Shown one piece after another: positions 16,924 through 58,316 of a DNA stretch of 64,000 nt. The stretch comes from Vampirovibrio chlorellavorus (GTDB lineage Bacteria > Cyanobacteriota > Vampirovibrionia > Vampirovibrionales > Vampirovibrionaceae). The notes under the pieces are model-generated. The model saw nothing but the letters and a program-made list of their open reading frames with translations. It had not been told where the DNA came from and did no database searches. Where the stretch lies: positions 14,004 to 78,003 of the forward strand of contig NZ_QFWH01000005.1 in the NCBI RefSeq assembly GCF_003149375.1, written 5' to 3'. Made by a program: the position numbers and the translations under genes. Positions within the stretch are counted from its first letter, which is position 1; each line of letters starts with the position of its first letter.

Positions 16924-17020
16924 GACAGTCAGAAAGTTTTCTTTCTTGCGTTTTAGTATATGAAAAAGACTTGGGGACAACAAGCATCAACTTTTATTGT
17001 CTCAATAATATTAGGCAAGG

Positions 17021-17148
17021 CTGCCTTCACAACACATTATTAAAACTGCGTGCAGCTCAGACAAACCTATGGTGCTTTGGGCAAAGATGCCAACCTGAAT
17101 TTTTAACTCGCTGTCCTCCATACAGTTACAAACGTGTTGTGAAGGGAT
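17021..17148 (+). repeat. copy A of a roughly 130-160 bp structured intergenic repeat (conserved core, copy-specific self-complementary outer stem)
   Basis: Outer inverted repeat CCTTCACAACAC ... GTGTTGTGAAGG. Core TAAAACTGCGTGCAGCTCAGACAAAC ... GGCAAAGATGCC ... TTTTAACTCGCTGTCCTCCATACAGTTACAAACG shared with copies B and C. Confidence 0.75.
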
Positions 17149-17190
17149 CATTTCCTAAAATTGGATGTGTATTTGCCCTGCCCGCCCCCA

Positions 17191-17457
17191 CTAAAAAGCC
17201 GAGTCTGACTTCATCGCGCATTGCTGTAAAAGGGCTATCCGTCGCTCGGTTCGCTGGGTAGCGCCTTCCAAAGTATCCGCCAAAGCCTGTTCCAGCGGAA
17301 TATTTTGTTGATCCGCCAGCGCCCGGGCCCTGAAAATCAGCGCTATAATCCCTTTTTCGGGCTTGCGGGCGTCAACCCGTTTGAACAGGGCCTCCAGCTG
17401 TGCCCAGTAGGCTTTCTCCAAGGGGCTTAACGTTGTATAAAAACCGGAAATATCCAT
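17191..17457 (-). CDS. hypothetical protein
   Basis: 88 aa ORF, predicted helical. No recognised motif. Confidence 0.3.
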   Translation of the reverse strand: MDISGFYTTLSPLEKAYWAQLEALFKRVDARKPEKGIIALIFRARALADQQNIPLEQALADTLEGATQRTERRIALLQQCAMKSDSAF

Positions 17458-17603
17458 AAAATGGCCTTTTTCTTTTGAGATTTGACTTTTTAAAGCCCGG
17501 GGAAAGCATTTTCAGTAAATCGCCTTGAGATGCGGATTCTGGTCTTCAGGTTTCCAGATTATGGCCGAGACATAATCCATACACAAACCATGGGAGGGCT
17601 AAC

Positions 17604-17702
17604 ATGACTTGTCAGTGCTGTGGGGCCTATATCCCGGCTGGAAGCTATCACTGTGTACAGTGTGGCGCGCCCATCCTGCAACCGGAACCAGAGACCGGGT
17701 AA
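17604..17702 (+). CDS. 32-aa zinc-ribbon mini-protein (not in ORF track)
   Basis: ATG preceded by GGGAGG at -13..-8. Translation MTCQCCGAYIPAGSYHCVQCGAPILQPEPETG has two CxxC pairs spaced for a zinc ribbon. Confidence 0.3.
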   Translation: MTCQCCGAYIPAGSYHCVQCGAPILQPEPETG

Positions 17703-17815
17703 GCGCCTCTGAAATGTAAATCTGAGACGCAAAAAAGAACAGTGGCGCTCTTCAACAAGGCCACTGCTCTTCTTCATTAAAAAAACCAGACGCAATGAAA
17801 GGTTCAGGGGGGCAC

Positions 17816-18898
17816 TTACTCCGCGATGGATTTGCCAGCGGATTTCAAGTCCCGGAACGCCTCATCCAAACGGGCAATAACGCCCTCTTCCCCTGTGCGC
17901 AGCCACTTGCGGGGATCGTAGGCTTTCTTGTAAGGGGTATGGGTGTCCGGGTCAATCTGATACTGAAACGCTTTGGGGTTGGCCATCACGTACTTGCCCA
18001 CTTCATGGGCAAAGGCGAACTGCAAGTCGGTATCAATATTCATTTTGAACACCCCGTAGTTCAGGGTTTCCTCAATTTTGGCCTGTTCCGACCCGGAACC
18101 ACCGTGAAACACCAAGTTCAAAGGATTGGGCCCGGTTTTGTGCGTGGATTCCACCAGAGCCTGCGAATTTTTCAGGATTTCCGGGCGCAGTTTGACGTTG
18201 CCGGGTGCGTAAACCCCATGCACGTTCCCGAAAGAAGCGGCGATGGAGAAGAACCCGAGGGGCGACAAACGCTCGTAGGCTTGCAGCACATCTTGCGGCT
18301 GGGTGTAGAGGTTGGGATTATCCAAGTCGTCATGCTCAGAGCCAATGCCGTCCTCTTCGCCACCGGTAATGCCCAGTTCAATTTCGATGCTCATATCAAT
18401 GGCCGCCGCCCGCTTTAAAATCCGGGCGGATTCCGACAGGTTGAACTCCAGCGTCTCTTCGGACAAATCCAGCATGTGAGAGGTGAACAGGGGGCGTCCG
18501 GTTTGTTGATAGTGGGCTTCCCCGTGGGTTAGCAGGGCTTCCACCCAGGGAATCAGCTTTTTATTGGCGTGATCGGTATGCAGGACCACACAAACCCCGT
18601 AGTGTTGGGCCATCAGGTGAACATGCTGAGCCGCGGAGACCGCCCCCAGGACTTTGGCCTGAAAGGAGTCCGGGAAGCCTTTACCGGCGTAGAACTCCGC
18701 CCCGCCGTTGGACAGCTGGATGATGACATCGGATTTATTTTTCCGGGCCGCCTCCAGCACAGCGTTAATGCTGTTGGTTCCTACCACGTTGACGGCAGGC
18801 AGAATGTATTTTCCAGCCTTACAGGCCTCTACCAGGGTCTGATAATCCTTTCCGGAAACCACGCCCGGCTTTAGCTTGGCTTGAGTGGCAATGCTCAT
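17816..18898 (-). CDS. fba: fructose-bisphosphate aldolase, class II
   Basis: 360 aa. Class II FBA-type TIM-barrel sequence with conserved His/Asp-rich metal-site segments (LHTDH, FHGGSG). Confidence 0.85.
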   Translation of the reverse strand: MSIATQAKLKPGVVSGKDYQTLVEACKAGKYILPAVNVVGTNSINAVLEAARKNKSDVIIQLSNGGAEFYAGKGFPDSFQAKVLGAVSAAQHVHLMAQHYGVCVVLHTDHANKKLIPWVEALLTHGEAHYQQTGRPLFTSHMLDLSEETLEFNLSESARILKRAAAIDMSIEIELGITGGEEDGIGSEHDDLDNPNLYTQPQDVLQAYERLSPLGFFSIAASFGNVHGVYAPGNVKLRPEILKNSQALVESTHKTGPNPLNLVFHGGSGSEQAKIEETLNYGVFKMNIDTDLQFAFAHEVGKYVMANPKAFQYQIDPDTHTPYKKAYDPRKWLRTGEEGVIARLDEAFRDLKSAGKSIAE

Positions 18899-19104
18899 GT
18901 CAAAATCCTCTGATCAACATCATGACGGTCATTGGATTATTTTCTTACAAAAGCCGCCATTGTCACCCCGCCAAGTGTCGTAAATCCGGATTCTCACTGA
19001 CCAGTCCTCTTTCCGGCCAGTCCTCTCTCCCTCCTTCCGATCCGCGAACACCGCAGTCGGCCCGTCTCTTCACAGGCTCGTGCTCCAGAAGTAAAGGGGG
19101 GCGG

Positions 19105-19722
19105 CTAATTTTCCAGGCAAATGCGCATGCCGGTATCCTGATCGGTGATGGCCTCCGTGGCATACGGGCTGGCTGTTTTGTCCCCAAATCCTGCCTGCGT
19201 CGCCCGGGAGGTGGGTTGTGGGGTGGCCGGGGGCGTCTTTTTCATGCCGGAAAAGTATTTATGGAATTTCCCGTGGATGATTGAAAGCAAATCCTGAGCC
19301 TCGTGCAATCCGCCCTGCACGTAGGTTCCGGTCAATCGTTCCACGATGGTTAGCTGGATTTTTTGCGAGTAGACCTGGCATAAGTCCATAAACTCTCGCA
19401 CCACCCGGATCATATCGTTCACTTTCACGGCCAGAAAAAACTGATCCGAAGGCTCCAGAATCATTAAATAGTTCATCGCTTTGGACAGGTACGGGTCCAG
19501 ATCATAGTCACGGCGTCTGGCCCGGGACTTATACAGGGCCAAAGCCTTGTCCTTGCCCAGACTTTTTAGGTCGTTAATGCGAATGTGGGCATTGAAGTCA
19601 CTTTCAGCGATTGAACACATCCCCTTGGCCAGAATCGAGCGGATATCCCCGGAAAACCCGAATAGAGAAGTCACGGCCTCTTTGACCGTGGGGTTTTTCT
19701 CGTAAAAACGAACATGGGTCAT
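19105..19722 (-). CDS. hypothetical protein (paralog of the 796..1326 product)
   Basis: 205 aa. Colinear similarity to the 796..1326 product over about 110 aa (LKSLG...RRRDYDLDP...ILEPSDQ) with a divergent C-terminal tail. Confidence 0.55.
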   Translation of the reverse strand: MTHVRFYEKNPTVKEAVTSLFGFSGDIRSILAKGMCSIAESDFNAHIRINDLKSLGKDKALALYKSRARRRDYDLDPYLSKAMNYLMILEPSDQFFLAVKVNDMIRVVREFMDLCQVYSQKIQLTIVERLTGTYVQGGLHEAQDLLSIIHGKFHKYFSGMKKTPPATPQPTSRATQAGFGDKTASPYATEAITDQDTGMRICLEN

Positions 19723-19782
19723 CTTGCTCTAAGATTCCATCGTTCAGGGGAACACGACAATCAACGGTGTCAACAGCAAAAT

Positions 19783-19862
19783 CGGGTAGGAAAGTTCTGG
19801 TTAGGAAAGCTCTGACGATAGAGAAGTCTGACGGTAGAGACGTGCTAAATCGTAGGGAAGTA
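19783..19862. repeat. five tandem degenerate 15-16 bp direct repeats with (G/T)TAG(G/A)RAAG core
   Basis: GTAGGAAAGTTCTG / GTTAGGAAAGCTCTG / ACGATAGAGAAGTCTG / ACGGTAGAGACGTGC / ...CGTAGGGAAG, located in the promoter region of 19105..19722. Confidence 0.5.
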
Positions 19863-19963
19863 CTAATACAAATGGACCAGTCTTACTATTTCTAAACACC
19901 CGGTTCCCCATATCCAAAAATTATTGTGTTTTCCTCAAAACCCAATGCACGGCTCTGCTCGCC

Positions 19964-20752
19964 TTAAATCAGGCCTGCGCCCAGCAACAGGCCGTAAGCC
20001 ACCAGTAAAATGCCCACAACCGTCTGCATCCAGGACAAGGTCACTTTTTGCAGCCAGCGACTGCCCAGCCAGGTGCCCAAAAAAGCGCAAGCCATGGCCC
20101 AAAGCAGCAACTGCCACTGGGCTGGAGTCTGGAGCAGCGCCTGATGCCCCTGAGTCAGGGTAAACCCATACACCCCAATGCGGGCCACATCCACCAGAAC
20201 CGCGGCCAGCACTGTTGTCCCGATGAAAGCCTGCTTGTCCAGACCGAGTCGAATTAAAAAGGCCGAACGAAACGCCCCCTGATGGCCGGTCAAACCGCCA
20301 AAAAAACCGGACAACGCCCCACCCAGGGGAACCCACTGCCGGGACAGGGTCAACGCTCTGAATTTGGGGCTTAACTCCAGACTGGCAAAGACAATCATCA
20401 GCAAGCCGATGGTGAACCGAATCGGCGTTACCTGAAACCACTGCGCTTGCCAGAGGTATTGGAACAACGGGGGGAGCGCATTCAGGTACTGAAGCAGAAA
20501 AGCGCCTCCAAAGGCGGCCAGAACGGCAGGCACCGAGAACCTCAGCAACACCCCGGCATGGGCGTGTCTGGCAAACAACAGGGCCTTTAGCAGGTTGTTG
20601 GCCAAATGTACGATGGCCGTGGCGGCAATGGCGATGGGCGGATCAAAAAACACCAGAAACACCGGCAGCAGCAGGGTGCCCAGCCCAAAACCGGAAAACA
20701 GGGTGAGCAGGGAAATCAGCAGGGTTAAACCACCCACAATCAGGAAAGCCAA
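19964..20752 (-). CDS. TauE/SafE family sulfite-exporter-like membrane permease (DUF81)
   Basis: 262 aa, 8 TM helices in two 4-TM halves. Gly-rich motifs (LSGFFGGLTG) typical of the family. Confidence 0.65.
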   Translation of the reverse strand: MAFLIVGGLTLLISLLTLFSGFGLGTLLLPVFLVFFDPPIAIAATAIVHLANNLLKALLFARHAHAGVLLRFSVPAVLAAFGGAFLLQYLNALPPLFQYLWQAQWFQVTPIRFTIGLLMIVFASLELSPKFRALTLSRQWVPLGGALSGFFGGLTGHQGAFRSAFLIRLGLDKQAFIGTTVLAAVLVDVARIGVYGFTLTQGHQALLQTPAQWQLLLWAMACAFLGTWLGSRWLQKVTLSWMQTVVGILLVAYGLLLGAGLI

Positions 20753-20958
20753 TGGAAAACACCTCCCCTTGATGATGATGAACGCCTACTGTAATACAAA
20801 CCCCATCACCCTTGCACGGGCAGCCAAGATCCGCCTGAAAATGCAAAAGGAAATCGATGCCGCTTTGACCGCATGATAAACATTGCCTGTTCTGGCAATA
20901 GGCGCGCCCTGTATCAACCGATATAATTCCAGATTGGGATGATTAAGGGTTCATTGTT

Positions 20959-21159
20959 ATGGAAATTCGTCACACACGCTGTCCGAACTGCGGGAAACTG
21001 TCTGTGGTCACGCAGGACATTGAGGTCCTGTGTGATTCCGCGCTGCTGGTAAAACTGGAGAACCGCATTCAGCGTTGCTGCCAGCAATGCGGCTGGATGG
21101 ACTTTCTGGACATTGACCTCGATAATCCCCCGTCCGCTGCCTCCACCACCCACCGATAA
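20959..21159 (+). CDS. small zinc-ribbon protein, hypothetical
   Basis: 66 aa with CPNCG ... CCQQCG Cys pairs. Confidence 0.35.
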   Translation: MEIRHTRCPNCGKLSVVTQDIEVLCDSALLVKLENRIQRCCQQCGWMDFLDIDLDNPPSAASTTHR

Positions 21160-21211
21160 CGATCGCTCCCCAGTTCGGGCAGTAAATCCCACCACAAAAA
21201 GGGAGATGGCT

Positions 21212-21430
21212 ATGGAACCGGAATCCGCTCACCTGATTTTACCCGCCAACCTGTATCGGCAATTCAGCCGTTTGAAAACCATGGGCCAGTTTCAAAGCGA
21301 TGCGGACGTGTTGCAAGCCAGCCTGACCGCGCTGGAGCAGCAGTGGGCACACCACCGCCTGGAAAGGGCTCACGGCAGAACCCCCTACATGTCCCGCCCT
21401 CCCATGAGTATTGAGGACTATGACACCTGA
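21212..21430 (+). CDS. small ribbon-helix-helix-like (ParD/CopG-type) protein, hypothetical
   Basis: ATG at 21212 lies 6 nt after GGGAG. 72 aa; the AHLILPANLYRQF beta-strand then helices (LQASLTALEQQW) resemble RHH antitoxin folds. The track ORF extends further upstream. Confidence 0.3.
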   Translation: MEPESAHLILPANLYRQFSRLKTMGQFQSDADVLQASLTALEQQWAHHRLERAHGRTPYMSRPPMSIEDYDT

Positions 21431-23397
21431 GCGGGCCAATCCACGATGCCATCGTCCGCCGGGTCCGCCGGGTCCGCCGGGGCGTCATTCCCTCGGGCTC
21501 TGGACAGGCACAGTTCGGATGCCTGACGGACTGTGGGCAAAATCTGTTCCTCCAGAAAGCTGGCCGCCGACTGGCAAAAGGTTTTAATCACCTTCTGGGC
21601 CTTCAAGGGGCCATCCGGTAGCGTTAAAGTTTCCTGAAACTGCTCCCGATACGCTCGCATTTCATGAATCAGCAAATAGGCGGCAAAGGGGGCTTCCGAA
21701 AATCGGGTGTAAATGGCCTGATTCACCCCCAGGGTCAGGTTGGCCAGCTTCCGCAAATCGGATTGATTGCGGCCCGCCAATCGTCCCTGCTCTTTTAAAA
21801 AGCGGATGTGACCGATCAGTTCCACCTGCAAATCCTGAATCGCTTTGTTCAGGGACTTGGCCCGACCCTGTTGCGCTTCCGCCGTCCATGCCGGTGGCTG
21901 GGACAGGGCGTGGGGCTGCTTCCAGCAGGGCCACTGACCCACCCAGCGCTGTAAGTCCAGCAGCGGGAAGCCTTCGATATGCGCGCCGCCCAGGGAGGCG
22001 TTCCACAGTTGCGCAGGTCGTTCGCTTTTGGCGTTCAAGGCGGCCATCTCTTCCAGATGAATCAAGAAACTCTGGTAGGACTGCAAGGTGGGCAGTGGCT
22101 TGCCATCCTGCCCCGGCACGGTGGTCAGGTCGTAAGGGGCGGTGTACAAGCTCTCGGAGGCTTCCAGATCCAGCTGCCCCTTCTCGTTCAGGCGCATAGC
22201 GACGCCACCGGCGTACACCTGATTGTGAGGAAAGGCCAGATCCTGCCCGACCAGCGCAATGGGATTACAGCCCATCCGTTGGGCCATCTGGAAGCCAATG
22301 ATCGACACGGTACCCCCGCCGCCCAAACGGCAATGCTTGCGCTGCAAGGCCTCATCCAGAAAATCCACAAACTGCATGTTATTTTGAGCCAGCATCAACA
22401 GCTTGCCCCGGCTGGGCATGTCAAACACAGCGGGCTGGGTAAAGGGGCTCATAACAAAGGTGATCTGCTCCAGGTAGGCGTCTGGCAAGCCATGCACCTG
22501 CTCCTTCATGCCGTTGGCGTCGTAAAACAAGGCGAAATCCGGGGTAATGCCGTGATCGTGTAAACGATGCAAAGCCCCGCCTACGGCAATCAGCACCACG
22601 GCATCAGCCAAAGCCCGAACCCAGGGTAGGGCCGCATCCAGAGACGGCCCCCGGGATATGACCAGGGCGGGCTTGTCTGTAAAAGAATCCACCAAGTCAT
22701 CCAGAGTGGGCATGGCGGCAAAATTCGGGGCGTTGCCAAAGAATTGCTGAATCCATTTCTGGTGGAAGTGCTGGCCCGTTTTAAAGTCCTGCACCCGAAA
22801 CAGTTCCATGCGGGTAATCTGCTCCATCAGCGGCTGAATTTCCTGAGCCAATAAAGCGGCACTTCCCCGCAGGGTTAAAATATCCAGCTTGTATTGACTG
22901 TAAAGTTTTTTACGCAAGTACAGCAAAAAGTCCTGCTGATCGCAGAACAGGGCCACCCGGGGCAGCGACAGCAAATGGGCCAGATCCACGTTTTCCAGTA
23001 CAAAGCGCAGCAAGGCCGCATCCGGCTCATACACCACCATCTGACCGGGGCTTTTTTCACTCAGGGCCTCCAGCAGGTACCCCAACCCCAGACCCAGCAC
23101 CACATGCACCCGATCCGCCACCAGGGTGGCCTGTTGGGCAATGACCGCCTCCGCCTCACTCAGTGGGCCCTGAGGATCATGCAAGGCCACCCCCCGGTAC
23201 AACAGGGTGTAGCCGCCATCCGGACAGGGGTTCAGCTCAAACTCGGTGATGGGCGATACGGCCCGCAACTGGTCCACCGTCGCCGCATGCTGGGCATGGG
23301 TGGATAACAAGGCCTGACAATTGGATTCAAAATACATAGGGGCCACCCTCGTTGCTGGCTGTGGGCACTGCTTCAGTTTAGCGTCCCAAACCGGCAA
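21418..23397 (-). CDS. DUF115 / MptE-like (Maf, motility-accessory-factor family) putative glycosyltransferase
   Basis: Central segment ALVISRGPSLD ... GGGGTVSIIGFQMA ... ALVGQDLAF matches the conserved Maf/DUF115 core. 659 aa with additional N- and C-terminal helical regions. Confidence 0.55.
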   Translation of the reverse strand: MPVWDAKLKQCPQPATRVAPMYFESNCQALLSTHAQHAATVDQLRAVSPITEFELNPCPDGGYTLLYRGVALHDPQGPLSEAEAVIAQQATLVADRVHVVLGLGLGYLLEALSEKSPGQMVVYEPDAALLRFVLENVDLAHLLSLPRVALFCDQQDFLLYLRKKLYSQYKLDILTLRGSAALLAQEIQPLMEQITRMELFRVQDFKTGQHFHQKWIQQFFGNAPNFAAMPTLDDLVDSFTDKPALVISRGPSLDAALPWVRALADAVVLIAVGGALHRLHDHGITPDFALFYDANGMKEQVHGLPDAYLEQITFVMSPFTQPAVFDMPSRGKLLMLAQNNMQFVDFLDEALQRKHCRLGGGGTVSIIGFQMAQRMGCNPIALVGQDLAFPHNQVYAGGVAMRLNEKGQLDLEASESLYTAPYDLTTVPGQDGKPLPTLQSYQSFLIHLEEMAALNAKSERPAQLWNASLGGAHIEGFPLLDLQRWVGQWPCWKQPHALSQPPAWTAEAQQGRAKSLNKAIQDLQVELIGHIRFLKEQGRLAGRNQSDLRKLANLTLGVNQAIYTRFSEAPFAAYLLIHEMRAYREQFQETLTLPDGPLKAQKVIKTFCQSAASFLEEQILPTVRQASELCLSRARGNDAPADPADPADDGIVDWPAQVS

Positions 23398-23441
23398 GGG
23401 CCTCCCTCAGGCAAAGGACTCCCCCGAACGCCCAAGGACGA

Positions 23442-24101
23442 TCAGCGCATGGCCTTGCGCTCGCCAAACCCGGGGGAGGTTTCCGGCAAGCCTTTATACC
23501 CCGGACTGGAGCGCACGAAGGCTTCCAGCGTTCCCGCCTTTAACTCTTTTTCCAGCCGGTTTTCCCGATCCACCAGGGGATGCGTGCCTTCGGCCAGTTG
23601 GGCCAGCGCCGGATTTTTGGCTTTCAGGGCCATCCATACAGTGGCCTCAAATCGCCAGCTTTCCACCTCTTCGCTCAGGGAATTTTCGGCGTCATCGTGC
23701 AAGGCCTCGTGGGCAATCAGGGCGGCCAAGGCCTCCGGCGGCGCCTGACGGTGTTTTTCATTCACAAAAATCACCTGATCCCCCTGATTGCTCATCCAGC
23801 TCAGGGCGTCATAATTCTTCAGGCTTTTGTTCAGCAGACGCATGTCCTTAAACACTACCCGCACCGGTTTGCTGACGATCTGGCGCAGCGACGGTTCCGC
23901 TGGCCCTTCGGTCATCAGCTGAAAGGCCTTTAAAATGCTGTCCTCCCGGGTGCAGTGCAGTAGGGCGGTTAAGCTGTAGCGGGTCTGGGAAAAGGCGGGA
24001 GCCAGGCCATCGGACACCGCCAGACTCAAGAAGATGAGGAGTGAGCAGGCCACCTGTATGCGGGACAAGGGTGACACGGAAAAAACAGGCGCGGTTGGCA
24101 T
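23442..24101 (-). CDS. hypothetical secreted protein
   Basis: N-terminal signal-like segment ACSLLIFLSLAVSDGLAPAFS, then an acidic/helical domain. No recognised family. Confidence 0.35.
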   Translation of the reverse strand: MPTAPVFSVSPLSRIQVACSLLIFLSLAVSDGLAPAFSQTRYSLTALLHCTREDSILKAFQLMTEGPAEPSLRQIVSKPVRVVFKDMRLLNKSLKNYDALSWMSNQGDQVIFVNEKHRQAPPEALAALIAHEALHDDAENSLSEEVESWRFEATVWMALKAKNPALAQLAEGTHPLVDRENRLEKELKAGTLEAFVRSSPGYKGLPETSPGFGERKAMR

Positions 24102-24268
24102 GGCAGTCTAAGCCCCCAATTGGGTGAACGCTACTTTAAAGTGTGCGCAAAATATTGCGATTCTCTATGGAATCGGCGATTTCAGAAAATCTTGAATCCC
24201 ATTTCAAAAAGATCGGGCAGGTGACGGAACCCCCTCCGCTTGGGGTGGCCTGTCTGGCATTTCACTTT

Positions 24269-25492
24269 TCAGAACAGGTACAACCAGCGTAGTACCAGCC
24301 ATCCTCGCAGTCGGGACTGGAAAAACTGAAAAAATCGGGGTTGATGTCCGGTGTAATAGCGCTCCACCAGCCGAATGGCCGTCGCCACACCCGAGGGTGT
24401 GGTTGCTTCCGCATGTTGCAGCACGGCCAGAGACCGGGCGTACCAGCGCGCCAGCCCAATCGCTACCCCCGCCATGGCCACCAGCGCTTGCGCCGAGCCT
24501 CCCGAGGCCAGTAAGCGATTCCGGGTGAGGAGGTTGTAGACAAAGGCTTTCAGCAGGCGCTCGCCCTCAGGCGACCAGCGAACCCGGCCCATATCCTTCA
24601 GGGGCAAGGGCTCTCCAAACAGGCGGGGATCATGGTACAGTTCCCCGCTGAGCAGTTGAAACAGGCTGAAACTTTGATAGGGCTTGCGTAAAAAGTACAC
24701 TAGTAGCGTCTGTTGCCGACCCGCCCAACCCCATGGCATACGGGTGGAAGTCGGTCGCCCGGTATTCGATCGCTGAGCGGTTAAGCTGGCCTGCACCCGT
24801 GACAGGGCTTGATCCGCCGTGCAGTCCTCCGACTGAAACCAGTCCTTCCACTCGGCCCGCAGCCTCTGTAGCGATTCCCAATCCGTTTGCCGAAACAGGG
24901 TTTGCCACACCCGGGCGGGCATGGTTTGCACATCGGCCAGCCATTCTTCCGGCGTACGGTCCAATCTGCATTCCGACTGGCCTTCTGGCAGAGAGGGAGC
25001 CGCAAGGCTTGTGTGTGCCGGCCCTGAAGCCTGCTCCGGTGCCTGCCTCTGTGTCTCAACCGGTGTCTGCCCTCGAGTCTGATCCACTGGCCGGGGCTGA
25101 ATGGGCCGGAAGGCCAGCAGCAATTTTTCCGAAACCGACTTGCAAGCCGCCGAGGTATCGTGAATGGTGGCGCCATTGGGGGCCTTGACCGTGGCAAAGG
25201 GGAAGCGCTGGCACTCATGCGGCTTCAGCGCCAGTCCTTCATGGACTTCCACCAGACAACGTCGATCCGCGCCTAAAAATACGCACACGTTCTCATCGGT
25301 GAGCGGAATGCGGTACATGCTTTCGGACTGGCGCTGTAATTGGCGTCCAGTTTCCTGCAGCCTTTCCTGTACCCAGGGCTTTTGCAGCAAGGCTTCCGCT
25401 TTTTCCGCCTCAATGGGGATGTTCCAGCTACTGCAACACTCCCCGCACAGCTGACACTGAAAATAAACGGCCTGATTTGAGTCCTGATTCAT
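24269..25492 (-). CDS. YkgJ/UPF0153-type Cys-cluster (putative Fe-S/Zn-binding) domain protein with long uncharacterised C-terminal region
   Basis: N-terminal YFQCQLCGECCSSW ... CVFL ... RCLVEVHEGLALKPHECQRFPF matches the CxxCxxCC...C YkgJ pattern. Pro/Gln/Thr-rich linker, then a unique roughly 230 aa domain. Confidence 0.5.
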   Translation of the reverse strand: MNQDSNQAVYFQCQLCGECCSSWNIPIEAEKAEALLQKPWVQERLQETGRQLQRQSESMYRIPLTDENVCVFLGADRRCLVEVHEGLALKPHECQRFPFATVKAPNGATIHDTSAACKSVSEKLLLAFRPIQPRPVDQTRGQTPVETQRQAPEQASGPAHTSLAAPSLPEGQSECRLDRTPEEWLADVQTMPARVWQTLFRQTDWESLQRLRAEWKDWFQSEDCTADQALSRVQASLTAQRSNTGRPTSTRMPWGWAGRQQTLLVYFLRKPYQSFSLFQLLSGELYHDPRLFGEPLPLKDMGRVRWSPEGERLLKAFVYNLLTRNRLLASGGSAQALVAMAGVAIGLARWYARSLAVLQHAEATTPSGVATAIRLVERYYTGHQPRFFQFFQSRLRGWLVLRWLYLF

Positions 25493-25506
25493 ATTCCCTT
25501 ATGATA

Positions 25507-25663
25507 CTAGAAGGTGAGCATCCCTTCCCGACCCGTTTCTAAAACTGCGTGCAGCTCAGACAAACCAATGGAGTTGCTCCTGGCAAAGATGCATCGCGTC
25601 AAGTTGAACTCGCTGTACTCGGACAGTTACAAACGTATCGGGAAGGGATGCTCACCTCCTAGA
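25507..25663 (+). repeat. copy B of the structured intergenic repeat
   Basis: Outer inverted repeat CTAGAAGGTGAGCATCCCTTCCCGACCCG ... CGTATCGGGAAGGGATGCTCACCTCCTAG. Core CGTTTCTAAAACTGCGTGCAGCTCAGACAAAC ... TGGCAAAGATGCA ... TTGAACTCGCTGTACTCGGACAGTTACAAACG. Confidence 0.75.
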
Positions 25664-25693
25664 GTTATGTAACCCCAAGGCTGGAAATGACCC

Positions 25694-26476
25694 ATGTGCC
25701 CGCTGTTATTTGAATTATCTGGTATCAAAATCTATGCCTACGGAGTATTGGTGGCCTTGGCCTTTTTGGTGGGGTTCGCTTTCATCGCCCAAAGGGCCAA
25801 ACAGGCCGGGGATCGGGTGGATGATTATACGGAAGCCCTCATCTGGTTTATTATCGCTGGTATTGGCGGGGCCAGACTGTTTTATTTCATCTGGTTTCCA
25901 GCCCAGTTTTTCAGCGATCCGCTGGGCTCCATCCTCAGTAAGGGGGGATTAGTTTGGTATGGCGGTGTCATTGGGGCTTTTTTAGCCATGGCCATTTACA
26001 CCCGCCTGAGAAAAATCCCCCTGTTGCGCTTTGCCGATATTGTAGCCCCGGCGGCCGCTTTGGGTTTGGCCATCGGACGGATCGGCTGCCTGCTGGCGGG
26101 CTGCTGTTATGGAGCCCCGTGCGACTTGCCCTTGGCCATCCATTACCCCTTGCAACACGAAACCCACGGCTTGGCCGTGCATCCGGCCCCGCTGTACGAA
26201 ACAGTGCTGATGGTGCTGGTCACCTTCGTTTTGATCAAGCTGGATCGTAAAAAACCGTTTGAGGGTTTTACCACCTGGTGGTTCTTTATTCTGGCGGGCA
26301 TAGTGCGTTTTGCGCTGGAGTTTGTGCGAGGCGATCAACTGGTGTGGAGTCAGGAATTACACATTAGCGCCTCTCAGTGGGTGAGTCTGGGGGGCATCGC
26401 CCTAGGCGCTTTCATGCTGGCCTATCTCTCCCGAAAAAAGCAATCCTCTGCCAAACAGCCCCCCGCCTTGGTTTAA
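25694..26476 (+). CDS. lgt: prolipoprotein diacylglyceryl transferase
   Basis: 260 aa polytopic protein with Lgt signature regions (YGVLVALAFLVGF..., GGARLFYF, WYGGVIGA, GRIGCLLAGCCYG). Confidence 0.85.
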   Translation: MCPLLFELSGIKIYAYGVLVALAFLVGFAFIAQRAKQAGDRVDDYTEALIWFIIAGIGGARLFYFIWFPAQFFSDPLGSILSKGGLVWYGGVIGAFLAMAIYTRLRKIPLLRFADIVAPAAALGLAIGRIGCLLAGCCYGAPCDLPLAIHYPLQHETHGLAVHPAPLYETVLMVLVTFVLIKLDRKKPFEGFTTWWFFILAGIVRFALEFVRGDQLVWSQELHISASQWVSLGGIALGAFMLAYLSRKKQSSAKQPPALV

Positions 26477-26608
26477 GATTGATTCCAATGTTATAAAGCG
26501 GCAGGATCATTGCTGGCCCTTCTGTTTGCCATTCGCACGTAGGTGGGAATGACAAATAGCCAATGGGATGACTTTGCATTTTTTTGATGTCGGCCCATGA
26601 AAATCTCT

Positions 26609-26751
26609 GGCAGGTTCCGTTTACACCACGTTTCTAAAACTGCGTGCCGCTCAAACAAGTTGTGGAATTTTTTTTGGCAACGTTGCCAAGCTCAAGTTTT
26701 TTAACTCGCTGTACTTAAACAGTTAGAAACGTGGTGTAAACGGAACCTGCC
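26609..26751 (+). repeat. copy C of the structured intergenic repeat
   Basis: Perfect outer inverted repeat GGCAGGTTCCGTTTACACCACGTTTCTAAAACTG ... CAGTTAGAAACGTGGTGTAAACGGAACCTGCC. Core with central palindrome TTGGCAACGTTGCCAA and TTTTTAACTCGCTGTACTTAAACAGTTAGAAACG. Confidence 0.75.
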
Positions 26752-26867
26752 AAATCTTTTTAGCCGGGGAGGGCTGCTGGAGGGGGCACAGAACGAGCGG
26801 CAAGCTCTCCCCCCCAGTGGGGGTAACAGAGGGCAAGGTCCCCTGAAAAAGAATTGAATTGAGTAAG

Positions 26868-41252: not shown

Positions 41253-44200
41253 ATGTCTACAATAGGGTCTAAAACAGGCAAAGCTGGTAAAGCCGGATTT
41301 CAGTGGACGCAATTGTTGAAAGTTGCCGGTCGCTTTCCCGTGAGGGGTAAGGGATACGGGCTGGCCATGCTCATGGTGTTTTTGGGCACCACCATGGCCA
41401 TTGGCGCCTCTTTGCAATTAATGAGTGGCCCTTTATCAGCCATTGTCATGGGCAGCGCCAGCCAGAACCGTCTGGCGGCGGAAGAACTGGCCAAAAGTGG
41501 ATTGAGGGCGGTGACCGGCCAGCTTCAGGCTTACTACAATGGCGGGCAAACCATTTCCGCTGGCCTTTCTTTCAACTCTACCAGCGCCCCGGCTTACGTT
41601 CTCATGCCCCAGAGTCCCGACAGTCCGGCTGGAGCGACCCGCTCTGTTGGTTCTTACACCAGCCGGGTTAGTTATGTGAATGGCAATACCCTGCTGGTTA
41701 TGGTAACGGCCACAGTGGGGAGCAGCCAGTCCAGCGTCAGCCAGTTATTGACCCTGACGCGGGACGCTTACCCAATGGCGTTCAACAACATTACAGGTGC
41801 CACCGCCGCTTACGGCTTGCGTCGATTAACCAGCAGCGCCGCTATTACCCGGGCCATTCGGGTACGACGGGGCAGAGACAATGCCGAAACGGACATTGGC
41901 TTTTTACCCAACGGCGATTTGGACATACCCGCCTTGATGACTTTCCTGAATGATGGTCTGACCACTTACCCCAAACCGCTGGATCGGGTGACTGGCGCAG
42001 TTCGGGCTTATAGTTTAAGGAAAATCAACACTGCCTACACGGGCAACGCCATTATCGTCAGGCGCAGTAGCGATGATGCCACCACCAACATAGGCTTTTT
42101 GCCCAATGGCGATTTGGATGCGCCCGCCCTGCTGAGCTTTTGCAAGACGGATAGTTGCTTTGTAACCGCCTGGTATGACCAGAGCGGCAATGGCCGTCAC
42201 GCCACCCAGACCACCCTGGCCGCCCAACCCCGCATTGTGAATGCGGGCGCGCTGGAGATGATCAATGGCCGGGTGGCCCTTCGATTTGATGGCGTGGATG
42301 ATACCATGCTTGGAGCCACCAACAATACAGCCAACAGTTCTTTTAATCTGGTGGTGGCTCAGGTGGACGCCGGGGCCAGCATCACTTTACAAAGCAAAGC
42401 CACTAGCGGTACGTCTGGGACTGGTGGTCAAAAGTATTTGCTGAGCCCTCCCAATGCGGGGGCCGTCAACGCGGGGACAGGAATCTCGCTGGGGGAAAAT
42501 GGGGCGGGTGTCTATGAGCATGGCAATAGTTACATGCCCTGTCTTGCAAATTCGGTCATAAGCCCCAATAGCAACGATGGCCTAGTCGTATCGTACAACT
42601 ACATCAACAAGCAGCCTTTTCTCTTTATCAATAGTAAACTGGTGGATGTGGGGTTCACCTCTCCCCGGGCCGATTTAGCGCTTCCTGTCCATGTCGGCGG
42701 CCCGCCGCCAGTTCATGCGCCCTACGGCTATTTTAAAGGAGCTGTGGGGGAATGGATTCAATACCCTACTAGTTTAACCACCGCCAACCGGCAAATGCTG
42801 GAGAACGATGAAGCCCGATATTATGACCTGACTCTGGCTGATCCGGGGTATACCCCACCGCTGGTAACCGTACCCAGTGCCACCGCCGCTTACGGCTTGC
42901 GTAGATTAATTACTGACAATACCGGAACGACTGATGATGATAAAGCCATTCAGGTGCGTCGTAGCAGTGATAACACCACCCAGATTATTGGTTTTGACCC
43001 CAAAGGAAATCTGGATCTTGCAAACTTGTACAAGTTTTGCGGGGCTGGCAGTTGTTTTGTCTCCATCTGGTACGATCAAAGCGGGAACAACCGGCACCTG
43101 ACCCAGCCCACCGCGGCCAACCAGCCTCGCATTGTGAATGCCGGGGTTTTGGATACCATTAATGGGCGACCTGCCATGCGTAACATAGGAAGCCGGATTT
43201 TGCTGGGGGCGGGTGCAAATCTCATGGCGGGAACCGGTGGGTGGTGGTATTCCACTATACTGGCCGACTATGGCAGCGTTGATACTGCGAACTTCCTGGA
43301 TCGTAACCCCGCCGGCAACAGTAATCCAATTGTGGGGTTAATGAAGGCTTCCGGGAAATTTGGGATTGTGACACGCCGGAATGATGGAACCAATCAAACT
43401 GTGCGGACAGGTTCTTATACCATTCCCAGTGATGGTACGGGTCAACTGGTTTCCTGGCAACGAGTCCGAGGGGTCGAATATACCTTGTTTGTCAATGGCC
43501 TGGTGGATGCTTCCACACCGGATACCGATACGGATATTACCCCACAGGGAGTGGCTGTTCTGGGGCATAATGAGATTGGTTATTATCCCGGTGCCAGTGC
43601 GGCCATGTCAGAACTGATTATTTATAACACCAGCGTTACCACCGCCACTCGGAACCGTCTGGAAGGCAATCAAATGGCCTATTACAACATCAACAATCAG
43701 GAGCCGGACACCGGTTTTGTGACCACCTGGTACGACCAAAGCGGCAATGGTTTCAATTTTATGCAAGGCGAGCGGGAATTACAGCCGGTGATTCGGCTGG
43801 ATAGCAAAACGGGCCGCCCCACCATTCAGTTTAATGGCTTAAACAATTACATGGCCACCGGCACCACCCTCAACTTTACCGGTACCAATGCCCGGGCACT
43901 GGTGGTGGCCAGTATGGACGGTTCTACTGGTAGTGCTGGCAGGTTGTTTGGTGGTAAAAAAAATTCGGACGTCTACGATTACGCCACGCCTGAATCGGTT
44001 TCCTTCCTGCGCCGTTACGGCGCTACCAATCAACTGTTTAGTTACCGAAATAACGCCACGCTGGGCATATCTCCGGCCTTTACCCTGAACCAGCCCTTTC
44101 AGGCCACCTCTGTTTTTAATGGCAGTTCCCATCAAATTCGCGTTAATGGAGTCAATGGTACCTCTGTAGCCAGCAGCGGCTCCTTTGGCATCAACCAGCT

Positions 44201-44345
44201 CTGGCTGGGCGGCGCGCCTTTTCTCTTTCTGGGGGATCTCTGGGCCGGTGGGGTCAGCGAGATTCTTCTCTATCCCAACGCCATGAACGCGGTCCCATTG
44301 GCGCAGCTGGAGCAGGATCAGCGCAGTTACTATGGTACCCCCTGA
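41253..44345 (+). CDS. large surface protein with N-terminal hydrophobic (PilX-N-like or signal) segment and at least three LamG/concanavalin-like lectin-type repeats
   Basis: Repeated modules A(Y)GLRRL...AI.VRRSSD....IGF.P.G.LD...L..FC....CFV..WYDQSGN..H.TQ......QPRIVNAG (three or more copies). The D.SGNGNH motif is characteristic of LamG_3-type domains. Confidence 0.5.
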   Translation: MSTIGSKTGKAGKAGFQWTQLLKVAGRFPVRGKGYGLAMLMVFLGTTMAIGASLQLMSGPLSAIVMGSASQNRLAAEELAKSGLRAVTGQLQAYYNGGQTISAGLSFNSTSAPAYVLMPQSPDSPAGATRSVGSYTSRVSYVNGNTLLVMVTATVGSSQSSVSQLLTLTRDAYPMAFNNITGATAAYGLRRLTSSAAITRAIRVRRGRDNAETDIGFLPNGDLDIPALMTFLNDGLTTYPKPLDRVTGAVRAYSLRKINTAYTGNAIIVRRSSDDATTNIGFLPNGDLDAPALLSFCKTDSCFVTAWYDQSGNGRHATQTTLAAQPRIVNAGALEMINGRVALRFDGVDDTMLGATNNTANSSFNLVVAQVDAGASITLQSKATSGTSGTGGQKYLLSPPNAGAVNAGTGISLGENGAGVYEHGNSYMPCLANSVISPNSNDGLVVSYNYINKQPFLFINSKLVDVGFTSPRADLALPVHVGGPPPVHAPYGYFKGAVGEWIQYPTSLTTANRQMLENDEARYYDLTLADPGYTPPLVTVPSATAAYGLRRLITDNTGTTDDDKAIQVRRSSDNTTQIIGFDPKGNLDLANLYKFCGAGSCFVSIWYDQSGNNRHLTQPTAANQPRIVNAGVLDTINGRPAMRNIGSRILLGAGANLMAGTGGWWYSTILADYGSVDTANFLDRNPAGNSNPIVGLMKASGKFGIVTRRNDGTNQTVRTGSYTIPSDGTGQLVSWQRVRGVEYTLFVNGLVDASTPDTDTDITPQGVAVLGHNEIGYYPGASAAMSELIIYNTSVTTATRNRLEGNQMAYYNINNQEPDTGFVTTWYDQSGNGFNFMQGERELQPVIRLDSKTGRPTIQFNGLNNYMATGTTLNFTGTNARALVVASMDGSTGSAGRLFGGKKNSDVYDYATPESVSFLRRYGATNQLFSYRNNATLGISPAFTLNQPFQATSVFNGSSHQIRVNGVNGTSVASSGSFGINQLWLGGAPFLFLGDLWAGGVSEILLYPNAMNAVPLAQLEQDQRSYYGTP

Positions 44346-57696: not shown

Positions 57697-58137
57697 GTGT
57701 TGCGGTTTTATACCAGTACTTGTCCATTTCCAAGCCTGCAAATTGCTTTGCCAGAAAGGCCAGTCATTATGCTGTCCGTATTACCGTCCAACATTCCCCG
57801 CCCCTTGGCGGACTCATCGTTTCCCCGCCCCGCGAGAGGGGTTCAGCCAATGCTTGGCCCATTGTCCCGGAACGCTGCCCCATCGGGCGACGACCAGTTC
57901 ACGCGTTTGCCTGCCCCGAATGCCCGCACTAAGCCTGTGCAGTTCGGTGGTGGCGGTAAGGCTATGGCGTTCGGCACGGGCGGTCTGGCCACAGGGGTTC
58001 TTTTGTGGCCACTGAGTCTGGTGGTCGGTCTTTTCGGCTTGATTATCCATCCCTTACTGCCCATCGCCGCGCTTATGGGTGTCGCTCCCATTGGGCTATC
58101 CATCTGGGGCGCTATATCGGGCTGGAAAAGTAAATAG
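57697..58137 (+). CDS. hypothetical small membrane protein
   Basis: C-terminal Gly-rich hydrophobic helices (LATGVLLWPLSLVVGLFGLIIHPLLPIAALMGVAPIGLSIWGAISGW). Start uncertain (alternative Met at 57769). Confidence 0.3.
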   Translation: MLRFYTSTCPFPSLQIALPERPVIMLSVLPSNIPRPLADSSFPRPARGVQPMLGPLSRNAAPSGDDQFTRLPAPNARTKPVQFGGGGKAMAFGTGGLATGVLLWPLSLVVGLFGLIIHPLLPIAALMGVAPIGLSIWGAISGWKSK

Positions 58138-58316
58138 AGTCCAAAGTAAATTAAACCCAAAGTAAATAGGGCCCAAATCCAGTAAAGCCCCTGCTTGGCA
58201 TAGACGGCAGAGAAGAGCGTCCCCCCTGAGCCGGTTTCAATCAGCCCTGATTTTGGCTTGCCCCGGGATTTTGGTCTGCCCTGGCTGCTCCGGTTGGCAG
58301 TTTCAATCCCCGAGCC

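What the first reader, a model, noticed from the sequence alone, without database searches (positions are those of the whole stretch)
17021..26751. Three-copy intergenic repeat family with conserved core and copy-specific but perfectly self-complementary outer stems; two copies bracket lgt
Copies at about 17021..17148, 25507..25663 and 26609..26751 share a core (CTAAAACTGCGTGCAGCTCAGACAAAC ... GGCAA-AGATGCC-like mini-palindrome ... TTAACTCGCTGTNCT...CAGTTA(C/G)AAACG), all in the same orientation. The outer 12-30 bp differ completely between copies, yet each is an exact inverted repeat within its own copy: CCTTCACAACAC/GTGTTGTGAAGG; GGTGAGCATCCCTTCCCGA/TCGGGAAGGGATGCTCACC; GGCAGGTTCCGTTTACACCACG/CGTGGTGTAAACGGAACCTGCC. 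Complementarity preserved without sequence conservation is the classic signature of selection on secondary structure. Two readings are possible: a structured RNA family, or a hairpin-forming DNA element (MITE-like or recombination-site-like). All three copies are intergenic. Two lie immediately upstream and downstream of lgt; the third sits between tRNA-Val and a small ORF. No transposase or integrase is nearby.
Basis: seen in the sequence. Interest (0 to 1): 0.85.

Follow-up and report, generated by a model that had tools for sequence, protein, structure and literature searches.

The report
Palindromic mini-transposon family of Vampirovibrio
The three repeats are copies of a small non-coding jumping element (a MITE, about 144 bp) found only in Vampirovibrio genomes; this is an ordinary kind of element, but its two arms stay complementary while their sequence drifts, and its core holds a 22-base box that also sits at the tip of long hairpins in unrelated bacteria.

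Summary
The three copies are real: 17014-17155, 25513-25656 and 26609-26751, all on the + strand. They are not a free-standing RNA family. They belong to a multi-copy family, with 33 copies recovered from the window plus three Vampirovibrio genomes.

The family has the hallmarks of a MITE:
- GG...CC termini with terminal inverted repeats.
- 8-bp AT-rich target-site duplications.
- Two clean filled/empty polymorphisms. The copy upstream of lgt is absent from strain NCIMB 11383.

The "copy-specific" stems are diverged versions of one arm consensus, GGTGAGGCTGCCCTTCACAACACGTTTGTAA. Its outer 12 nt match an E. coli IS1 end at 11/12.

Covariation in the arms is strong: 23 of 27 pairs show double changes. 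It is symmetric between strands (G:T about equal to A:C) and independent of gene orientation. One core is inverted in situ, and some palindromes extend into the flanks. I therefore favour DNA-level arm-to-arm correction over RNA selection.

The core evolves more slowly than its flanks. Its right box, AACTCGCTGT(G/A)CTCAAACAGTT, also caps long locus-specific hairpins in Ralstonia, Ilyobacter, Aureibacter and many metagenome contigs. This is unexplained and is the only potentially novel part.

Verdict: a new member of a known kind, of moderate interest.

The parts
17014..17155 (+). MITE copy 1 (partly decayed). Left arm 17014-17041, box L 17042-17064, box R 17105-17127. The right arm is complementary only in its inner 12 bp.
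   Evidence: 120.5 bits. The fold is weak (z -1.5 to -2.2). The orthologous copy in Vampirovibrio sp. clean456 (L026) has the same flanks but an inverted core.
17006..17013 (.). Left target-site duplication of copy 1 (TAATATTA). Its degenerate partner is TAAAATTG at 17156-17163.
   Evidence: (6/8 identical), sequence.
25513..25656 (+). MITE copy 2, with intact arms (GGTGAGCATCCCTTCCCGA.../...TCGGGAAGGGATGCTCACC). Box L 25541-25563, box R 25607-25628. It lies 37 nt upstream of the lgt ATG and just downstream of a promoter-like site at 25477-25505.
   Evidence: 138.8 bits; z -7.0/-8.4. Absent from the orthologous site in V. chlorellavorus NCIMB 11383.
25505..25512 (.). Left target-site duplication of copy 2 (TACTAGAA).
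   Evidence: The empty site in L020 reads TACTGGAA once.
25657..25664 (.). Right target-site duplication of copy 2 (TCCTAGAG).
26609..26751 (+). MITE copy 3, with intact arms (GGCAGGTTCCGTTTACACCACG/CGTGGTGTAAACGGAACCTGCC). Box L 26636-26658, box R 26703-26724. It lies between the convergent genes lgt and ispF.
   Evidence: 149.1 bits; z -8.4/-8.9. Orthologous copies exist in NCIMB 11383 (L020) and Vc_AZ_2 (L003), with 4 compensated arm changes including a compensated 1-bp indel.
26601..26608 (.). Left target-site duplication of copy 3 (AAATCTCT).
   Evidence: Sequence. The orthologues have AAATCTCT/AAATCTTT (7/8) and AAATCTTT/AAATCTTT (8/8).
26752..26759 (.). Right target-site duplication of copy 3 (AAATCTTT).
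17470..17485 (.). Empty target site (AATCTCAA on the - strand). It is occupied by a further MITE copy in Vampirovibrio sp. clean456 (L026:4624-4800, TSD AATTTTAA/AGTTTTAA).

Best explanation
The three repeats are copies of a non-autonomous DNA transposon (a MITE of about 142-155 bp) specific to the genus Vampirovibrio.

Shown:
- Each copy is GG...CC-terminated, with inverted arms of about 30 bp around a non-palindromic core of about 85 bp. The core consists of box L, a small central hairpin, and box R.
- Insertion duplicates 8 bp of AT-rich target.
- Copies are dispersed and differ in presence or absence between related genomes.

Inferred:
- The element is moved in trans by a DDE transposase encoded elsewhere in the genome. 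An IS1- or IS6/IS26-type enzyme is most likely, judging from the GGTGAGGCTGCC termini and the 8-bp duplication.
- The arms drift at about the rate of the surrounding intergenic DNA, yet they stay complementary mainly through DNA-level arm-to-arm copying. This could be intramolecular template switching or gene conversion between the inverted arms.
- The same process occasionally flips the core and extends the palindrome into the flanks.
- Selection for fold-back during transposition or in transcripts may contribute.

The core, especially box R, evolves more slowly than the flanks. It is probably a binding or structural module needed by the element or used by the host, and its partner is unknown. 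Copy 2 is probably transcribed as part of the lgt 5' UTR, so the hairpin does not act as a strong terminator.

The confidence given applies to the MITE identity. The arm-to-arm correction mechanism on its own I would put at about 0.5, and the IS1/IS6-type partner at about 0.5.
For: Family and distribution:
- A pattern scan of 185,579 species genomes returned 28 loci, all from Vampirovibrio.
- nhmmer finds 33 full-length copies in the loci plus the window.
- Arm termini occur only as pairs about 125-131 nt apart.

Transposition footprints:
- With boundaries set at GG/CC, 16 of 33 copies have flanking 8-mers identical at >= 7/8 positions, against 1.3% for mismatched controls. Shifting the register by 1-2 nt abolishes the signal.
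- Copy 2 is missing from NCIMB 11383, where the 8-mer occurs once.
- A clean456 copy is missing from the window at about 17478, where a single 8-mer is present.

Termini:
- The outer 12 nt match the E. coli IS1A end GGTGATGCTGCC at 11/12.
- The IS1 family has 8-9 bp duplications and GGnnnTG ends. IS6/IS26 has 8 bp duplications and shares GGnnnTG.

Covariation:
- 23 of 27 outer-stem pairs show changes on both sides, and 93.5% of cells are paired.
- None of 500 shuffles reaches the observed values, and slid registers fall to 30-43% paired.

DNA-level signature:
- G:T and A:C mismatches are balanced, 22 vs 21.
- Both strands fold equally well.
- There is no orientation bias in tandem-gene contexts (7 same, 4 opposite).
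- The core is inverted between orthologous copies that share identical insertion flanks.
- A compensated single-base indel occurs in orthologous copy 3.
- 4 of 33 copies have inverted-complementary flanks instead of direct repeats, against a 1.1% control.

Evolutionary rates in the orthologous trio:
- Core 2-6% different, arms 5-24%, 80-nt flanks 4-31%.
- Fourfold-degenerate sites 28-49% across the two genome pairs compared in that trio.

Precedent: compensated stems in mobile hairpin repeats are reported for bcr1 and REPINs.
Against: - No autonomous partner element was found. There is no IS1- or IS26-like transposase in the roughly 270 kb of Vampirovibrio DNA held, and whole genomes could not be rescanned.
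- Positions 6-7 of the terminus are GG or GT rather than the TG of GGnnnTG.
- Arm-to-arm correction is inferred, not observed. Selection on a hairpin (ssDNA or RNA) would give the same covariation.
- The central mini-hairpin carries several G:U-type single changes.
- Core conservation in orthologues suggests a function that a purely selfish model does not explain. That estimate is partly inflated because 24 core columns were fixed by the search pattern.
- Gene calls used for the context statistics were crude ORF calls.
Confidence: 0.85

Rival explanations
1. A family of structured non-coding RNAs (sRNA genes or cis-acting RNA elements). The conserved core would be the functional part, and the outer helix would be kept by selection on RNA pairing.
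For: - Covariation in the outer helix is strong.
- An orthologous copy carries compensated changes.
- The core evolves more slowly than the flanks.
- The central mini-hairpin shows G:U-type one-sided changes.
- Copy 2 probably lies within the lgt 5' UTR.
Against: - There is no Rfam family, even at E <= 10.
- G:U and A:C mismatches are balanced.
- Both strands fold equally well.
- Core orientation is unrelated to gene direction and is flipped at one orthologous site.
- 8-bp target duplications and empty sites show these are insertions, not genes.
- No consistent promoter or terminator is found.
Confidence: 0.1
2. A MITE that the host has co-opted, for example as a bidirectional terminator or RNA-stabilising hairpin between convergent genes. 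Stem complementarity would then be kept by host-level selection at each locus. This is compatible with a MITE origin.
For: - 16 of 29 classifiable copies lie between convergent 3' ends, and only 2 lie between divergent genes.
- Copy 3 is retained at the lgt/ispF convergent junction in three genomes, with a compensated stem and a conserved core.
- Many copies have A-rich left flanks and T-rich right flanks.
Against: - Enrichment at 3' ends is equally expected from purifying selection against promoter-disrupting insertions and from an AT-rich target preference.
- Several insertions sit next to pre-existing terminators.
- The terminator scan does not flag the elements.
- Copy 2 sits between lgt and its likely promoter, and a clean456 copy sits just upstream of a small ORF. 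Neither would be tolerated if the element were a strong terminator.
- Some copies decay.
Confidence: 0.15
3. An invertible DNA switch (inverton). The inverted arms would be recombination sites for an invertase that flips a core carrying a promoter or another oriented signal.
For: The core of copy 1 is inverted relative to identical flanks in clean456. The arms are about 30-bp inverted repeats around a core of about 85 bp.
Against: - Only one inversion was seen among the three orthologous sites where both genomes carry a copy.
- No invertase or recombinase lies near any copy examined.
- No convincing promoter lies in the core.
- Target duplications and dispersal indicate a transposon.
- Homologous recombination between arms explains a rare flip.
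Confidence: 0.03
4. Recombination sites of the integron attC type, or other structure-specific sites, with lgt as a cassette.
For: The elements are hairpin-forming, have AAAC/GTTT-like inner boundaries, and two same-orientation copies flank one gene.
Against: - In attC sites the ends are conserved and the centre is variable, which is the opposite of what is seen here.
- No integrase is present.
- The upstream copy is a recent insertion with an 8-bp duplication.
- lgt is a housekeeping gene in conserved synteny.
Confidence: 0.01

Closest known systems
Bacterial MITEs in general (e.g. Nezha in Anabaena/Nostoc, Chunjie in Geobacter, Correia elements in Neisseria; review PMC3184786)
   Same: Size of about 100-250 bp, no coding capacity, terminal inverted repeats, flanking direct repeats, very stable predicted fold-back, intergenic multi-copy distribution, and filled/empty sites between relatives (for the definition; here).
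   Different: No sequence relationship to any of these families was found. The arms are less conserved than the core, whereas in a typical MITE the termini are the best conserved part. No cognate IS has been identified yet.
bcr1 repeats of the Bacillus cereus group
   Same: A mobile repeat of about 155 bp with short flanking direct repeats. Base-pair compensatory changes maintain a long double-stranded structure, and some copies have lost stability.
   Different: bcr1 has 5-bp duplications and is reported to be transcribed, with RNA-level conservation. Here the duplication is 8 bp and the mismatch spectrum is symmetric between strands, which gives no support for an RNA-specific constraint.
REPINs (REP doublets mobilised by RAYT transposases)
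   Same: A hairpin-forming mobile unit in which compensatory changes on the two sides of the hairpin are common. Hairpin capacity rather than sequence is what is kept.
   Different: In REPINs the ends are conserved and the spacer varies. REPINs make no target duplication and depend on an IS200/IS605-like HUH enzyme. The Vampirovibrio element makes 8-bp duplications and has IS1/IS6-like GG ends.
IS1 family and IS6/IS26 family insertion sequences
   Same: The termini begin with GG. The outer 12 nt match IS1A GGTGATGCTGCC at 11/12. The duplication size of 8 bp lies within IS1's 8-9 bp range and equals that of IS6/IS26.
   Different: No transposase gene lies between the ends. Similarity is confined to the first 12 nt. 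Position 6 is usually G, not T. No related transposase was found in the DNA held.
ERIC/IRU and RIP/RIB-type BIMEs of enterobacteria (from my own knowledge; ERIC is listed in PMC3184786)
   Same: Imperfect palindromes of about 127 bp (ERIC) found at orthologous intergenic sites. RIP/RIB elements are palindromic units flanking a host-factor (IHF) binding site, which is a possible analogy for a conserved central box between variable arms.
   Different: No sequence similarity: the box has no match in 5,426 E. coli genomes. Whether any protein binds the box is untested.

Membership tests
MITE (non-autonomous DDE-type transposon) | Short (< ~600 bp), without coding capacity | tested here: met
   142-155 bp. 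Only spurious ORFs overlap the copies.
MITE (non-autonomous DDE-type transposon) | Terminal inverted repeats shared by the copies | tested here: met
   Arm consensus GGTGAGGCTGCCCTTCACAACACGTTTGTAA and its complement across 33 copies.
MITE (non-autonomous DDE-type transposon) | Target-site duplication of fixed length | tested here: met
   8 bp. 16/33 copies are identical at >= 7/8 against 1.3% in controls, and only in the GG/CC register.
MITE (non-autonomous DDE-type transposon) | Dispersed multi-copy family with insertion polymorphism between relatives | tested here: met
   28 loci in three genomes plus the window. Two filled/empty pairs were found.
MITE (non-autonomous DDE-type transposon) | A cognate autonomous IS with matching ends in the same or a related genome | tested here: inconclusive
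   None was found in about 270 kb held.
IS1 / IS6-IS26 type ends | Ends GGnnnTG | tested here: inconclusive
   GG at positions 1-2 is nearly invariant. Positions 6-7 are mostly GG or GT, and TG occurs only in L004. The match to the IS1A end is 11/12.
IS1 / IS6-IS26 type ends | 8-9 bp (IS1) or 8 bp (IS6) duplication | tested here: met
   8 bp, compared with the family tables quoted.
Structured RNA family | Match to a curated RNA family | tested here: not met
   No Rfam hit at gathering scores. At E <= 10 only weak matches to miRNA-precursor and other unrelated families appear.
Structured RNA family | Covariation supporting a helix | tested here: met
   This feature is also expected for a DNA palindrome.
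Structured RNA family | Strand-specific signature (G:U tolerated, A:C not) and constant orientation relative to transcription | tested here: not met
   22 G:U-type vs 21 A:C-type mismatches. Orientation in tandem contexts is 7 same, 4 opposite. One core is inverted in situ.
Structured RNA family | Discrete transcript | not testable with these tools
   No expression data are available.
REP/REPIN (RAYT-mobilised) | No target duplication; conserved REP ends with a variable spacer | tested here: not met
   An 8-bp duplication is present. The centre is conserved and the arms are variable.
Integron attC | Conserved R''/R' ends, variable centre, adjacent integron integrase or cassette array | tested here: not met
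   The architecture is the opposite. No integrase is present. The upstream copy is a recent insertion.
Intrinsic terminator | Short GC-rich hairpin with a small loop, followed by a U-tract | tested here: not met
   The scan does not flag the elements. T-rich right flanks are present in only some copies.

The most novel reading that the evidence does not exclude
The MITE core may carry a module that is functional in its own right and is far older and more widespread than the Vampirovibrio family.

- The 22-nt box AACTCGCTGT(G/A)CTCA(A/G)ACAGTT is present 22/22 in one Vampirovibrio copy.
- The same box forms the apex of long (60 to > 300 nt), locus-specific, compensated palindromes in Betaproteobacteria (Ralstonia), Fusobacteriota (Ilyobacter), Bacteroidota (Aureibacter, inside a type I-D cas operon) and at least a dozen unrelated metagenome lineages.
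- In several of these an upstream hairpin occurs, GTTACTTTCTTTG-CTTGnn-CAAAGAAAGTAAC.
- It matches no Rfam family, and no paper in the library contains the sequence string.

This would define a cross-phylum class of 'conserved tip, free-running stem' DNA palindromes. Examples of what they could be include a protein-binding or nicking site that seeds self-extending palindromes, or the shared centre of a MITE superfamily. Arm-to-arm copying would be the mechanism that keeps and lengthens the stems.
Probability: 0.3. Interest if true: 0.65.

Novelty: new member of a known kind. Interest (0 to 1): 0.45.

Why it matters
For annotation, the result removes a tempting false lead. These are transposon copies, not a new RNA gene family, and lgt is not part of a cassette.

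For Vampirovibrio biology, it gives the first described MITE family of this predatory, non-photosynthetic cyanobacterial relative. The family includes recent insertions next to essential genes (lgt) and could serve as strain markers.

More generally, the orthologous copies offer a clean natural example of a palindrome whose arms drift at roughly the neutral intergenic rate yet stay paired, flip their centre and creep into the flanks. This is a caution that covariation alone does not prove RNA structure.

If the cross-phylum box turns out to be a real functional module, it would point to an undescribed, widely shared partner for hairpin-forming mobile DNA, either a protein or a mechanism.

Tried and rejected
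- **Rfam.** Searches of the window, the three copies, 17 metagenome loci and the Ilyobacter and Ralstonia loci gave nothing, apart from tRNAs at gathering score and, at relaxed E-values, weak sub-threshold matches mostly to miRNA-precursor families.
- **Left-box scans.** Scans of metagenome and viral contigs gave zero hits. A right-box scan of viral contigs also gave zero.
- **Search for the parent transposase.**
  - A search for solo or widely spaced termini found none.
- **Terminator and promoter readings.** The scans do not support either as a general property.
- **attC and inverton readings.** Both were rejected on architecture and the absence of a recombinase.
- **Coding reading of the box** (K-T-R-C-A-Q-T-V). 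Rejected because the frame is not kept between the two Ralstonia orthologues.
- **Small Desemzia plasmid hit.** It was only a partial, probably chance match.
- **E. coli genomes.** No match to the box.
- **Literature string search for the box.** No paper found.
- **My early impression that the arms are hypermutable.** Corrected: the arms evolve at about the flank rate, and it is the core that is slow.
- **Boundaries of the Ralstonia element.** An attempt to define them from an empty site failed because the short GMI1000 spacer is not alignable.
- **MFE folding of 800-nt stretches.** It gave meaningless outermost pairs.

Full report
**Observation.**
- The three copies exist and lie on the + strand. 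The left box occurs three times in the window against zero expected.
- A covariance model built from 31 family members and run without filters finds only these three sites in 64 kb. Their scores are 120-149 bits, and the next hit has E >= 1.1.
- Copies 2 and 3 fold far better than shuffled sequence on either strand (z -7 to -8.9). Copy 1 does not (z -1.5 to -2.2), because its outer right arm has decayed.
None of the ten neighbouring ORFs tested is a transposase or integrase.

**What it is.**
- A pattern spanning both conserved boxes was scanned over one genome per species (185,579 species). It hit 28 loci, all in three Vampirovibrio genomes.
- A profile search raised this to 33 full-length copies, including the window. 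The window itself is 82-89% identical to those genomes, so it comes from a fourth Vampirovibrio lineage.
- With 33 copies in view, the 'copy-specific' stems turn out to be variants of one arm, GGTGAGGCTGCCCTTCACAACACGTTTGTAA. It has two main subtypes, GGCTGCC and GTATCCC.
- With the element defined as GG...CC, 16 of 33 copies are flanked by 8-mers identical at >= 7/8 positions, against 1.3% for mismatched pairs. The signal vanishes if the boundary is moved by one or two bases.
- Two sites are polymorphic.
  - Copy 2 is absent from V. chlorellavorus NCIMB 11383. There TACTGGAA occurs once, while the window has TACTAGAA-element-TCCTAGAG.
  - A copy in clean456 (AATTTTAA-element-AGTTTTAA) is absent from the window near 17478, which reads AATCTCAA.
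- A third locus (L018/L004) carries members of different subtypes and a leftover arm fragment, which indicates repeated hits.
- These features define a MITE. The bracketing of lgt is coincidental.

**Which transposase.**
- The outer 12 nt of the arm match the E. coli K-12 IS1A end GGTGATGCTGCC at 11 of 12 positions.
- Family tables quoted in two papers give IS1 duplications of 8-9 bp and GGnnnTG ends. IS6/IS26 has 8-bp duplications and the same GGnnnTG feature.
- No IS1- or IS26-like transposase, and no widely spaced pair of termini, is present in the roughly 270 kb of Vampirovibrio DNA held.
- The genome paper reports 13 transposases and does not mention such repeats.
- Assignment to an IS1/IS6-like partner is therefore an inference.

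**Why the stems stay complementary.**
- Covariation is very strong. 23 of 27 outer-stem pairs change on both sides and 93.5% of cells are paired. None of 500 shuffles reaches the observed values, and slid registers fall to 30-43% paired.
- It also happens in place. At the orthologous site downstream of lgt, the window differs from NCIMB 11383 by four compensated pair changes, one of them a compensated single-base deletion.
- The pattern carries no RNA signature.
  - G:U-type and A:C-type mismatches are equal, 22 vs 21.
  - Core orientation is unrelated to gene direction.
  - Both strands fold alike.
- At the tRNA-Val site the core is inverted relative to identical flanks in clean456. This is the expected product of recombination between the arms.
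- In four copies that lack a good direct repeat, the flanks are inverted-complementary instead (>= 8/10, control 1.1%). It looks as if the palindrome has been copied outward across its axis.
- I therefore favour DNA-level arm-to-arm correction, by template switching or gene conversion between the inverted arms. Selection for fold-back is a possible contributor.
- Compensated stems are already documented in mobile hairpin repeats: bcr1 and REPINs.

**Rates.**
- In the orthologous trio the core differs by 2-6%, the arms by 5-24% and the 80-nt flanks by 4-31%.
- Fourfold-degenerate sites of neighbouring genes differ by 28-49% across the two genome pairs compared in that trio; the FBA and orf19105 genes compared with clean456 give 23-29%.
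- So the arms drift at about the local intergenic rate and the core is constrained.
- This estimate is somewhat inflated because 24 core columns were fixed by the search pattern.

**Context.**
- 16 of 29 classifiable copies lie between convergent genes, 11 between tandem genes and 2 between divergent genes (crude ORF calls).
- This fits an AT-rich target preference plus selection against promoter disruption. It is also what a terminator-like exaptation would give.
- Against a strong terminator role, copy 2 sits between a promoter-like site (25477-25505) and the lgt start. In addition, the scans do not flag the elements.

**An unexpected lead.**
- A metagenome scan with the left box found nothing. 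The right box, AACTCGCTGTNCTCANACAGTT, hit 34 contigs that are not the Vampirovibrio element.
- In nearly all of them the box is the tip of a long, locus-specific, mostly compensated inverted repeat. Folding energies for 202-nt stretches reach -90 to -128 kcal/mol.
- These sites are intergenic, next to unrelated housekeeping genes, and in either orientation.
- The same arrangement occurs in three plasmid records:
  - the Ilyobacter polytropus megaplasmid;
  - Ralstonia megaplasmids;
  - an Aureibacter plasmid, between cas5d and cas7d.
- In several cases a second conserved hairpin, GTTACTTTCTTTG-CTTGnn-CAAAGAAAGTAAC, lies about 90 nt upstream.
- Two Ralstonia species share an orthologous copy. 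Roughly 110 nt (the upstream hairpin and the stem base) are identical, while about 12 of 22 positions in the upper stem differ, nearly all compensated. GMI1000 lacks the roughly 290-nt insert.
- One Vampirovibrio copy (L002) has the box 22/22. Box L of the Vampirovibrio core looks like a diverged direct copy of box R (sequence inspection).
- Some metagenome members have GGTGA(T/G)...TCAC ends and sit inside still larger palindromes.
- Mismatch types are again balanced, 9 vs 11.
- There is no Rfam family, no E. coli match, no viral match and no paper containing the string.
- I could not determine what the box does. Candidates recalled from memory include a host bending-protein site, an HUH nicking site (the CTTG/TTGAT loops resemble IS91, RCR and ISDra2 sites), or the shared centre of a MITE superfamily. 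None of these was tested.

**Verdict.** The finding is a genuine repeat family. It is a MITE, not a new RNA class: a new member of a known kind, with well-documented palindrome dynamics. One open thread, the cross-phylum box, deserves a proper genome-wide search.

Noticed in passing
L029-L065 (metagenome contigs; Ilyobacter NC_014633.1:672.8 kb; Ralstonia CP076412.1:499.7 kb; Aureibacter NZ_AP025311.1:54.7 kb): The 22-nt box AACTCGCTGT(G)CTCA(A/G)ACAGTT from the MITE core caps long, locus-specific, compensated hairpins in several phyla. They are intergenic, occur in either orientation, and match no Rfam family or paper.
   Followed up: partly
L063:1413-1449 and 1770-1801; L064:1404-1435; L065:2497-2527; L033:7589; L061:243: A second widely shared hairpin, GTTACTTTCTTTG-CTTGnn-CAAAGAAAGTAAC, often followed by CAAAAG/A. 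It lies about 90 nt upstream of the box hairpin. The 431-nt query containing it matches at 20 places in the Ilyobacter megaplasmid, and it also matches Pseudoalteromonas, Burkholderia and Caballeronia replicons. In Ilyobacter and Aureibacter its loop can pair with a downstream ATCAAG (a possible pseudoknot).
   Followed up: partly
L064:1449-1574 vs L068 (Ralstonia wenshanensis vs R. sp. RRA.1): In an orthologous box hairpin, the base and the upstream hairpin are 100% identical while about 12 of 22 upper-stem positions changed, nearly all compensated. GMI1000 lacks the roughly 290-nt insert between nasA and the upstream oxidoreductase gene.
   Followed up: partly
window 26477-26608 and 26752-26867: The lgt-ispF intergenic DNA around copy 3 is unusually conserved between the window and NCIMB 11383 (about 4% different on the left side, against 40% at fourfold sites). 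It contains G-rich runs and a GGGGGCAACGCCCCC hairpin. Its function is unknown.
   Followed up: no
window 25477-25505 (+): A promoter-like TTGAGT-17-TATGAT lies immediately upstream of copy 2. This implies that lgt is transcribed through the 144-nt palindrome in this genome but not in NCIMB 11383.
   Followed up: no
window 17005-17032 (-): A promoter-like site uses TTGTGA in the MITE arm as a -35 element and the AT-rich target duplication as a -10 element, facing outward toward tRNA-Val. The arms could therefore create hybrid outward promoters at some insertions.
   Followed up: no
L018:1790-1975 vs L004:7169-7346: The same locus in two genomes holds MITE copies of different subtypes, plus a leftover arm fragment (GGTGAGGGTAGCC) in L018. 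This suggests repeated insertion and decay at a hot spot.
   Followed up: partly
window 58127-58190: Four tandem 16-nt units, AAAGTAAATnnnnCCC, in an intergenic stretch.
   Followed up: no
window 41797-43750: Diverged internal repeats (60-80% identical over 49-134 nt, with one 33-nt pair at 97%), many spaced 897 nt apart, inside the 1030-aa ORF 41253-44345. This indicates a repeat-domain protein.
   Followed up: no
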